The position numbers and the translations under genes are program-made. A stretch of 60,611 nucleotides of DNA, the filler included, from Perkinsus olseni (Eukaryota), in assembly GCA_013115125.1 (NCBI GenBank). It is 7 parts of 7 records of this genome, joined end to end, with 100 filler letters (N's around TTAATTAATTAA, not from the genome) between each part and the next. Parts side by side here need not be neighbours in the genome. Positions count along the whole stretch, not along the records: positions 43,424 to 51,984 come from JABANN010000963.1; 6 more parts are not named here. One strand, written 5' to 3'. The first letter of the stretch is position 1; each line of letters begins with the position of its first letter. Below the pieces are notes generated by a model. The model was not told the origin of the DNA. It made no database searches and was given only the letters and a program-made list of their open reading frames with translations. Positions 44,586-45,389 of this stretch are shown here, in pieces.

Positions 44586-45389
44586 TCATCGCTTCCTTCG
44601 GATGGTCCCTCTAAAGAACCTCCTATTTCTACTCTTCTGAGTCTCAGTAAAAGGCTTAGGATTATCGGCATTATTATAAACGTAGGGGAAGGCAGCAACA
44701 CAAACGATTGCAGCGTGAGTGCCAGCAGCATCACCGTTGTAGAGATAAGGGAAGCTTCTGGCCCAAACATTGCGGTTGGAACCAACGCACCGACCAGGTG
44801 ATGGGTAGAGATACGGGAAGGCCGCAGGCGACACCCTCCGGGACTCTTCATCACGATCATAGAGATAAGGGAAAGCGGCAGTAGTGACGACGCCTTCACA
44901 GGGAGGCAATGAGAGGTACGGGAACTTGTCGCTTGACACCGGAACGTTATCAGCACCATCAACAGCCGCACGGCTGTAGATGTAGGGGAACTTGTCGCTC
45001 GACACTTCCACGCCATCGTGACCATCAGCTCTAGTAGCGTACATATAAGGGAACTGTTGAACAGACACTTCCCCAAGACAGACCAAGGGGATGAAGAGAT
45101 ACGGGAACTCAGAAGGCTTGCCCCTGCTGCGATCTGCGCTAAGCTCCGCAGTCGTAGTAGAGTGGCCGTCACCAACGCCCCCCTTGTGCTGAACAGTAGG
45201 AGAGGGTATGGTCGCCCTCGAGAGAGTTTCCAGTCGAGAGGCATCCTGTTCCTTCTCCACCTCATTCCTCGACACGACCACCATCCCGGGCTGAGCCCTT
45301 CGTGGTACTGCTGGAGTGATTACCTCGCTCGCCCTCGGAGGTGCAGCAGTAGGTGAACGATCGAAGCAGCCAGCACAGAAGCCTAGCAT
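44586..45389 (-). CDS. Hypothetical protein with eight VxxxxFPY[LMIV]Y-type repeats
   Basis: Single-exon ORF from the ATG of MLGFCAGCF; motifs conserved at protein level with divergent spacers. Confidence 0.75.
   Translation of the reverse strand: MLGFCAGCFDRSPTAAPPRASEVITPAVPRRAQPGMVVVSRNEVEKEQDASRLETLSRATIPSPTVQHKGGVGDGHSTTTAELSADRSRGKPSEFPYLFIPLVCLGEVSVQQFPYMYATRADGHDGVEVSSDKFPYIYSRAAVDGADNVPVSSDKFPYLSLPPCEGVVTTAAFPYLYDRDEESRRVSPAAFPYLYPSPGRCVGSNRNVWARSFPYLYNGDAAGTHAAIVCVAAFPYVYNNADNPKPFTETQKSRNRRFFRGTIRRKR

What the first reader, a model, noticed from the sequence alone, without database searches (positions are those of the whole stretch)
44586..45389. Protein with eight FPY[LMIV]Y-type cores separated by variable spacers
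Seen: FPYLF, FPYMY, FPYIY, FPYLS, FPYLY x3 and FPYVY every 17-22 aa, usually preceded by V-x4. Codons vary, so selection acts on the peptide. The N-terminus has MLGFCAGC (possible acylation) and the C-terminus is basic. The layout resembles multi-core RiPP precursors (plant cyclopeptide-alkaloid cores are short Phe...Tyr peptides) or a multivalent short-linear-motif scaffold. No signal peptide, dibasic cleavage pattern or tailoring enzyme is visible on this contig.
Basis: partly seen in the sequence, partly recalled or inferred. Interest (0 to 1): 0.7.

Follow-up and report, generated by a model that had tools for sequence, protein, structure and literature searches.

The report
Lipid-anchored Perkinsus repeated-motif protein
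A shellfish parasite has a small family of floppy proteins, probably fixed to a membrane by fatty acids, that carry up to nine copies of one short aromatic motif and most likely work as many-handed tethers rather than as precursors of small peptide drugs.

Summary
The 267-aa ORF (44586-45389, minus strand) has eight FPY cores 17-22 aa apart, seven with Val five places before. Shuffles never exceed three, and core codons differ only synonymously. The organism is Perkinsus olseni. The ORF belongs to an undescribed family found here only in Perkinsus and two unnamed assemblies: three paralogues in this genome, plus P. marinus and P. chesapeaki members. Over 46 units the consensus is V-[ST]-x-R-x-F-P-Y-[LVMI]-Y-D. 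All members are disordered, lack a signal peptide and Pfam domain, and start with an acylation-type N-terminus (MG..C or FCxxCF). Public models that fuse the ORF to the upstream gene are probably wrong. Best reading: a lipid-anchored, disordered multivalent tether whose motif docks in a protein pocket (0.42). The main rival is direct insertion into curved membranes, as shown for the look-alike AFPYLYSN of human VPS37A (0.25). The RiPP idea has a true analogue, grass BURP precursors with KFPYIYG cores. The Perkinsus proteins, however, lack the signal peptide, conserved flanks and any cyclase found (0.06). Expression and the partner are not shown.

The parts
44586..45389 (-). Single-exon ORF, 267 aa, family member 'A'; most likely a gene of its own
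   Evidence: identical to the C-terminal half of a named P. olseni model; orthologues in P. chesapeaki and two unnamed assemblies share sequence only from this Met on
45297..45389 (-). Conserved N-terminal segment (aa 1-31), M-x-x-F-C-x-x-C-F-D-R-S-P; Cys5 and Cys8 are candidate S-acylation sites; no Gly2
   Evidence: 24 of 31 identical with P. chesapeaki, 23 of 30 with P0002; F4 C5 C8 F9 D10 R11 S12 P13 invariant in 8 sequences; paralogue B has the homologous CxxCF with Gly2. Acylation itself is inferred
45123..45296 (-). Poorly conserved polar linker (aa 32-89)
   Evidence: 11 of 50 and 12 of 58 aligned residues identical in two orthologues; pLDDT about 29
45093..45107 (-). Core 1, FPYLF (aa 95-99); no Val at -5, degenerate in some orthologues
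45039..45068 (-). Unit 2, VSVQQ-FPYMY
44976..45005 (-). Unit 3, VSSDK-FPYIY (one unit fewer in this stretch in P0005, P0006, P0030)
44910..44939 (-). Unit 4, VSSDK-FPYLS
44859..44888 (-). Unit 5, VTTAA-FPYLY
44805..44834 (-). Unit 6, VSPAA-FPYLY
44739..44768 (-). Unit 7, VWARS-FPYLY
44676..44705 (-). Unit 8, VCVAA-FPYVY
44589..44645 (-). Basic C-terminal segment (aa 249-267) with the RNRR-x-F motif; the only helix in the model; highest hydrophobic moment of the protein
   Evidence: helix 249-266 at low confidence; moment 0.45, maximum of all 18-mers, 0.48 in P. chesapeaki but 0.16 in P0002; RNRR kept in orthologues
45400..45401 (-). AG 10 bases before the ATG: candidate spliced-leader acceptor (the acceptor that one public model uses to fuse the ORF to the upstream gene)
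   Evidence: sequence; use as a trans-splice site is inferred, not shown
45524..46686 (-). Upstream neighbour, probably a separate gene: spliced-leader site at 46686, ATG 46660, five introns, in-frame TGA at 45524; not part of the motif family
   Evidence: joints and loose end; leader ends GCTCAAG in PMC9399869 (passage); only a weak Pfam hit, E 0.1

Best explanation
The ORF encodes a disordered cytosolic protein tied to a membrane by S-acylation of its N-terminal CxxC (myristoylation plus S-acylation in paralogues B and C), perhaps with a second membrane contact through the basic C-terminal helix. A polar linker (about 60 aa here, about 300 aa in B) carries an array of independent 11-residue motifs, V-[ST]-x-R-x-F-P-Y-[LVMI]-Y-D. 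Each docks weakly in one pocket of a partner protein that is present in many copies (a coat, an oligomer or a cortical cytoskeletal lattice), so the array binds by avidity and tethers that assembly to the membrane. Shown: the motif, selection on it, disorder, the family and its shared acylation-type N-termini. Inferred: acylation, membrane location, binding to a protein. The partner is unknown.
For: Selection on the peptide (0 non-synonymous of 84 core codon pairs). Cores conserved between species while spacers drift. One motif shared by three paralogues with unrelated spacers. Side-chain strictness typical of a pocket: F at 0 in 45 of 46 units, Tyr at +4 in 39, aliphatic at +3 in 45, Val at -5 in 26, Arg at -2 in 21, Asp at +5 in 21 (units were picked by [FLY]PY[LIMVP]). 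A separate scan of 10 proteins for W, F or H variants found no WPY or FPF. Copy number 2-9 and spacing 16-103 fit independent ligands, not a folded repeat (pLDDT 32, pTM 0.17; Atlas model of B pLDDT 0.33). All 7 family sequences listed besides the window protein have Cys in the first 8 residues from the aligned Met, 4 of them with Gly2. Gly2 plus early Cys directs Toxoplasma ISP proteins to the inner membrane complex (PMC2936552, passages).
Against: No partner is identified, and no known ligand motif was found to match (xLIR 0 of 46 units). The only characterised look-alike binds lipid, not protein. The window protein lacks Gly2. The AlphaFold alignment had only 8 sequences, so low pLDDT is partly expected. 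Expression of this ORF is not shown. Cys near an N-terminus may bind metal or form disulphides instead.
Confidence: 0.42

Rival explanations
1. Same anchored, disordered chain, but the cores insert straight into lipid packing defects. The array senses or captures highly curved membrane (vesicles, alveolar rims, the phagophore edge), so the protein is a membrane-to-membrane tether or curvature sensor.
For: Best PDB match of the unit profile is human VPS37A, PTSTAFPYLYS (E 0.092). In PMC10942982 (section 7 read in full, other passages), residues Ala136-Asn143 shift on bicelles, FPYL to DDDD cuts liposome binding by about 45%, and doubling the sister motif WLFP raises it by about 650%. Interfacial hydrophobicity of the window cores is -2.05 to -3.31 kcal/mol, against -2.18 for FPYL and -3.09 for WLFP (scale values recalled). 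Basic residues lie just before all 16 cores of paralogue B.
Against: E 0.092 is not significant and there is no homology to VPS37A outside the motif. Plain lipid insertion should tolerate W, L and F swaps, and none were found. FPYL is the weaker of the two VPS37A motifs.
Confidence: 0.25
2. The protein is a multi-core precursor of ribosomal cyclic peptides: each FPYxY is cross-linked through Tyr and cut out, as in plant burpitides.
For: The unit profile finds grass BURP proteins whose N-terminal repeats are KFPYIYG (P0013 E 7e-9, P0015 E 3.7e-6; BURP confirmed for P0013 and P0026). FPIY is a proven cyclopeptide-alkaloid core, and a split precursor need not lie beside its cyclase (bioRxiv 10.64898/2026.01.20.700549, passages).
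Against: No signal peptide, but an acylation-type start. Flank identity 0.07-0.32 with irregular spacing, against 0.44-0.51 and a 15-residue period in the grass precursors. A repeating recognition sequence marks multi-core plant precursors (PMC11253845, passages). No fused BURP domain; none found in the genome, though these searches had no positive control. KR/RR precedes only 1 of 46 cores. The same profile also finds 5 unrelated bacterial-type LPYxW repeats, so convergence is common. Long conserved N- and C-terminal segments suit a protein that acts whole.
Confidence: 0.06
3. The Tyr-x-Tyr cores are self-association or cross-linking sites (aromatic stickers, or dityrosine links) that build a cortical mesh or wall layer at one life stage.
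For: 23 of 29 aromatic residues lie in the cores, a sticker-and-spacer layout; weak Extensin_1 hits on the grass look-alikes. Isodityrosine Y-x-Y links in plant extensins are recalled, not checked.
Against: Wall cross-linking needs secretion and there is no signal peptide. Stickers do not need an exact 11-residue consensus. No extensin hit on any Perkinsus member.
Confidence: 0.1
4. The motifs are Atg8-interacting (LIR/AIM) sites, making the protein a membrane-bound autophagy receptor.
For: F-x-x-[LIV] fits 7 of 8 window cores; the genome encodes Atg8.
Against: 0 of 46 units match xLIR (pattern from PMC5119064, passages): Pro and Tyr are both outside the allowed sets. Upstream residues are more often basic than acidic (29 against 14 of 46 units). 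The same paper notes one verified LIR with Pro at that place, so exclusion is not absolute.
Confidence: 0.07
5. The ORF is only the last exon of the 479-535-aa fusion protein in the public models, so the CxxC is internal and not an anchor.
For: Five P. olseni models join the upstream gene to this ORF; a GT...AG pair exists.
Against: The models join at different points (GV-LLIM, GVVSRG, GVSDYR, GD-LIIM). P. chesapeaki and two unnamed orthologues share nothing upstream of the Met, and P0019 starts at it. Paralogue B starts with the homologous CxxCF. The upstream frame has its own stop at 45524.
Confidence: 0.1

Closest known systems
Human VPS37A 137-FPYL curvature-sensing motif (PDB 8e22; PMC10942982)
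   Same: Near-identical hexamer AFPYLY in a disordered segment; works with a second hydrophobic motif
   Different: Single copy beside a UEV-like domain in an ESCRT-I subunit; the Perkinsus proteins have 2-9 copies, no folded domain and no homology; the match is not significant (E 0.092)
Fused grass BURP precursors with KFPYIYG repeats (P0013, P0015 named Aegilops; P0026 unnamed), and plant cyclopeptide-alkaloid precursors
   Same: Repeated FPY[IL]Y core, up to 16 copies
   Different: Hydrophobic signal-type start, regular 15-residue period, conserved flanks and a C-terminal BURP domain; none of these in Perkinsus
Dually acylated alveolate pellicle proteins (Toxoplasma ISP1-3, PMC2936552; GAP45 and MLC1 recalled)
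   Same: Gly2 and/or Cys in the first ten residues as the likely membrane anchor
   Different: No sequence family match; no Gly2 in the window protein; no such motif array is known to me in them (recalled)
Multi-motif disordered adaptors (Eps15 DPF, epsin DPW, FAM21 LFa repeats; recalled, no call)
   Same: Many copies of one short motif in a disordered chain, free spacing, avidity binding
   Different: Different motif, no folded domain, lipid-type anchor, partner unknown

Membership tests
Burpitide (plant RiPP) precursor | Repeated short core ending in Tyr | tested here: met
   FPYxY x8; like FPIY and FIPFY and grass FPYIY
Burpitide (plant RiPP) precursor | Signal peptide / secretory route (usual, not universal) | tested here: not met
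   hydropathy 0.71 against 2.53 for P0013; no signal-peptide predictor was run
Burpitide (plant RiPP) precursor | Repeating recognition sequence around the cores | tested here: inconclusive
   flank identity 0.07-0.32 against 0.44-0.51 in grass precursors, but a weak V-[ST]-x-R upstream consensus exists
Burpitide (plant RiPP) precursor | BURP cyclase, fused | tested here: not met
   no Pfam hit on P0001, P0002, P0007 or P0010, P0014, P0019, P0023
Burpitide (plant RiPP) precursor | BURP cyclase elsewhere in the genome | tested here: inconclusive
   0 matches with PF03181 and with P0015; no positive control rang, assembly fragmented and intron-rich
Burpitide (plant RiPP) precursor | Mature cross-linked peptide exists | not testable with these tools
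   needs mass spectrometry
Fungal Kex2-processed repeat / dikaritin precursor (features recalled) | KR or RR beside each core, signal peptide | tested here: not met
   KR/RR before 1 of 46 cores; RK before 7 more, all in paralogue B; no signal stretch
Fungal Kex2-processed repeat / dikaritin precursor (features recalled) | UstYa/DUF3328 oxidase in the genome | tested here: inconclusive
   0 matches, no control rang
LIR/AIM-containing protein | Core [WFY]xx[LIV] | tested here: met
   7 of 8 window cores
LIR/AIM-containing protein | Extended xLIR pattern | tested here: not met
   0 of 46 units
VPS37A-type curvature sensor | FPYL-type hydrophobic motif in a disordered region | tested here: met
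VPS37A-type curvature sensor | UEV-like or Mod(r) domain (membership of VPS37) | tested here: not met
   no Pfam hit
VPS37A-type curvature sensor | Selective binding to curved membranes | not testable with these tools
   only a hydrophobicity sum was computed
ISP-like dually acylated pellicle protein | Gly2 for myristoylation | tested here: not met
   Leu2 in the window protein; Gly2 present in paralogues B and C
ISP-like dually acylated pellicle protein | Cys within the first ten residues | tested here: met
   C5 and C8 invariant in 8 aligned sequences
ISP-like dually acylated pellicle protein | Location at the alveolar membranes | not testable with these tools
   no localisation data found

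The most novel reading that the evidence does not exclude
Perkinsus makes cyclic FPYxY peptides from a membrane-tethered, cytosolic multi-core precursor, using a cyclase unrelated or only remotely related to BURP. It would have converged on the core that grass BURP precursors carry, and would be a ribosomal natural-product pathway in an alveolate parasite (I recall none described).
Probability: 0.06. Interest if true: 0.85.

Novelty: new variant of a known kind. Interest (0 to 1): 0.4.

Why it matters
The family and its 11-residue motif appear undescribed: no Pfam family and no paper in the library with FPYLY or the accession numbers tried. Perkinsus sits between dinoflagellates and apicomplexans, so a new acylated multivalent tether would point to a new peptide-binding pocket or a lineage-specific pellicle or trafficking part. 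If the lipid reading holds, it is a natural multi-copy version of the VPS37A curvature motif. A practical point: the public P. olseni models probably fuse it to a neighbour and hide its anchor. The value is limited by the narrow distribution and the unknown partner.

Tried and rejected
Pfam: nothing on 7 family members; one weak hit in the fused upstream part of P0003. ESM Atlas: no usable hit by features for P0001 or for the repeats of P0023; the structure rows for P0023 come from a pLDDT 0.33 model and were ignored. AlphaFold gave no fold, so no fold search was run. Exact sequence not in the collection. A profile of four A-type orthologues returned only P0010 and P0004 among 8000 scored candidates, missing even two of its own members, so it is a weak negative. 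Genome pattern scans: FPY[LIMF]Y 42 matches against 32 for the control, 15 of them in the two loci; 30 of 42 were fetched and read, and none outside C782 formed a cluster. FPYVY 7 against 4, one in this gene; the other six were not read. Expression: no RNA holder on record. Four runs were laid; only X1 has contigs on the ORF (44609-44817, 44877-45145), unspliced as the gene has no intron, and DNA cannot be excluded. Contigs of all four runs splice the upstream gene and end at 45511-45539, and none joins it to the ORF, but a hole proves nothing and no DNA run was laid. Mod(r) search in the genome gave one sub-threshold hit, read by eye as coiled coil; controls rang too. Shifted-register alignments collapsed to the natural register and were dropped. 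Of 18 profile hits, 11 were set aside as non-family: 2 grass BURP, 5 bacterial-type LPYxW repeats, 1 protein judged phage-tail-like by eye, 2 likely spurious repeat ORFs, 1 unnamed protein P0021. No complex was predicted, since no partner could be named. Earlier findings of the scan: none. Literature searches for FPYLY, FPY motif or repeat, the accessions and Perkinsus proteomics found nothing on this family (listings only); subscription papers and supplements were not seen and may hold stage proteomes.

Full report
1. Observation. The ORF at 44586-45389 (minus) gives 267 aa. In 100,000 shuffles of the protein the count never passed 3. Among the eight units, the F, P and Y codons give 48 identical, 36 synonymous and 0 non-synonymous pairs of 84, while flank positions are 22-27 non-synonymous of 28. 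Phe is always TTC. The repeats are thus old, and the peptide is what is kept. The last 20 residues hold 9 K/R, and there is no signal or transmembrane stretch by hydropathy.

2. Setting. The window is a string of contigs joined by N linkers; this gene lies on the piece 43424-51984. The repeat region is identical to a named Perkinsus olseni protein. That model and four more from the species are 479-535 aa long and join the upstream gene to this ORF, but at four different junctions. The P. chesapeaki orthologue and two unnamed ones share sequence only from the Met at 45389 on, and one starts there. The upstream frame has its own stop at 45524. In one search, contigs of four runs splice the upstream gene (five introns in two of them). 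Run X1 shows loose ends that, with the genomic AG, read GCTCAAG at 46686 and CTCAAG at 44396, matching the end of the Perkinsus spliced leader (PMC9399869, passage). So the ORF lies between two leader-bearing transcripts, with a free AG ten bases before its ATG. I read it as its own gene (about 0.85-0.9). Expression is not shown: only one of four runs has contigs on it, and DNA cannot be excluded. No ORF tested on this contig (9 of them, of 13) has a Pfam family, so no tailoring enzyme is evident; short exons could be missed.

3. Family. The own genome holds two more members side by side on C782: B (651 aa, starts MGACTSCF, 9 cores after an acidic linker) and C (starts MGCNSS, 2 cores). A 17-position profile of 19 single units recovered a held-out 4-unit relative at E 1e-12. 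Run against 1.84 billion representatives it gave 18 hits. Seven are family: P. olseni A, B, C, P. marinus B, P. chesapeaki A (names) and two unnamed. Across 46 units of 8 proteins the consensus is V-[ST]-x-R-x-F-P-Y-[LVMI]-Y-D: Val 26, Ser/Thr 30, Arg 21, Phe 45, aliphatic 45, Tyr 39, Asp 21 (units were selected on [FLY]PY[LIMVP]). A wider scan of ten proteins found no Trp or FPF variants. Between species, cores are kept and spacers are not: 24 of 34 against 25 of 83 (A) and 33 of 35 against 58 of 215 (B); the first 31 residues are also kept (24 of 31; 22 of 29). A and B share CxxCF[DE] at the start; B and C have Gly2 and Ser6. AlphaFold finds no fold (pLDDT 32, pTM 0.17, 8 sequences) except a weak helix at 249-266, which is also the most amphipathic 18-mer. 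There is no Pfam match.

4. Mechanism. The anatomy is anchor, flexible linker, motif array, basic tail. Gly2 with early Cys targets Toxoplasma ISP proteins to the inner membrane complex (PMC2936552, passages); the window protein has only the two Cys, so it would be S-acylated alone. Free copy number and spacing mean the units act one by one. The strict side chains, kept across three paralogues with unrelated spacers, argue for a protein pocket. I therefore favour a lipid-anchored multivalent tether for an oligomeric or lattice partner (0.42). Acylation, location and binding are inferred; no partner is named.

5. Rivals. (a) Direct membrane insertion (0.25). The best PDB match of the profile is VPS37A AFPYLYS (E 0.092), and this very segment contacts bicelles and helps bind curved liposomes (PMC10942982, section 7 read). 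The match is not significant, and the lack of aromatic swaps counts against it, but it is the only tested look-alike. (b) RiPP precursor (0.06). Two of the 18 hits are grass BURP proteins with KFPYIYG repeats, and FPIY is a proven cyclopeptide core whose precursor need not lie beside the cyclase. Against it: no signal stretch; flank identity 0.07-0.32 against 0.44-0.51; irregular against 15-residue spacing; KR/RR before 1 of 46 cores; no BURP or UstYa found, though without a positive control; five unrelated bacterial-type repeats also hit the profile. (c) Self-association or Tyr cross-linking (0.10). (d) LIR (0.07): Atg8 is present and FxxL fits 7 of 8 cores, but 0 of 46 units match xLIR. (e) Last exon of a fusion protein (0.10).

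6. Known and new. It works like the disordered multi-motif adaptors of membrane traffic (recalled) with an alveolate-type acyl anchor. It is not a member of any family tested. FPYLY occurs in no paper of the library; searches with the accessions and with FPY motif terms found nothing on it; supplements and subscription papers were not seen. Papers seen: PMC10942982 (one section, passages), PMC13142933, 10.64898/2026.01.20.700549, PMC11253845, PMC2936552, PMC9399869, PMC5119064 (passages only); all others as search listings.

7. Verdict. A real, selected, apparently undescribed motif family of narrow distribution; a new variant of a known architecture. Interest 0.4. The peptide-natural-product reading stays open at about 0.06 and would be worth 0.85.

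Noticed in passing
P0013, P0015 (Aegilops, named), P0026 (unnamed); Grass BURP proteins with 10-16 FPYIYG-type cores at a 15-residue period before the BURP domain (P0013 with a signal-type start): candidate fused burpitide precursors. FPYIY was in none of the 25 listed of 105 papers; not checked further.
   Followed up: partly
P0021 (unnamed, 759 aa): Starts MGNLGC and carries seven FPYM motifs in a low-complexity chain, six within about 79-residue repeats: the same layout in an unknown organism, possibly convergent (E 5e-4).
   Followed up: partly
window 45524-46686 (-): Leader-bearing five-intron gene of unknown function with a basic C-terminus; public models fuse it to the motif ORF, probably wrongly.
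   Followed up: partly
window 43800-44396 and beyond (-): Leader-bearing, unspliced transcript in two runs with no long frame (longest stop-to-stop frame 100 aa, 44061-44363; no Pfam hit): small protein or non-coding RNA.
   Followed up: no
window 47463-47778, 49370-49688 (49382-49548), 51745-51911: Three diverged copies (67-68% DNA identity; two of them 42% protein identity) of an unknown gene segment on the same contig; no Pfam hit.
   Followed up: partly
window 528-1088, 5158-5706, 6393-7037, 7968-8513 (-): Tandem family of Pro/Ser/Asp-rich ORFs with a hydrophobic, signal-like start and a shared GRVLLRRA-type end: possibly secreted or wall proteins.
   Followed up: no
window 27169-28494 (+): Amino-acid transporter, PF01490 E 3e-56; on another contig.
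   Followed up: yes
L004:1843-2935 and L004:6442-6738: A transporter-like gene (MFS-like by eye, not tested) lies upstream of paralogue B; paralogue C follows B directly with its own MGC start.
   Followed up: partly
window N linkers at 8595-8694, 17282-17381, 25968-26067, 34648-34747, 43324-43423, 51985-52084: The window is a string of short contigs; genes across linkers are not true neighbours.
   Followed up: yes
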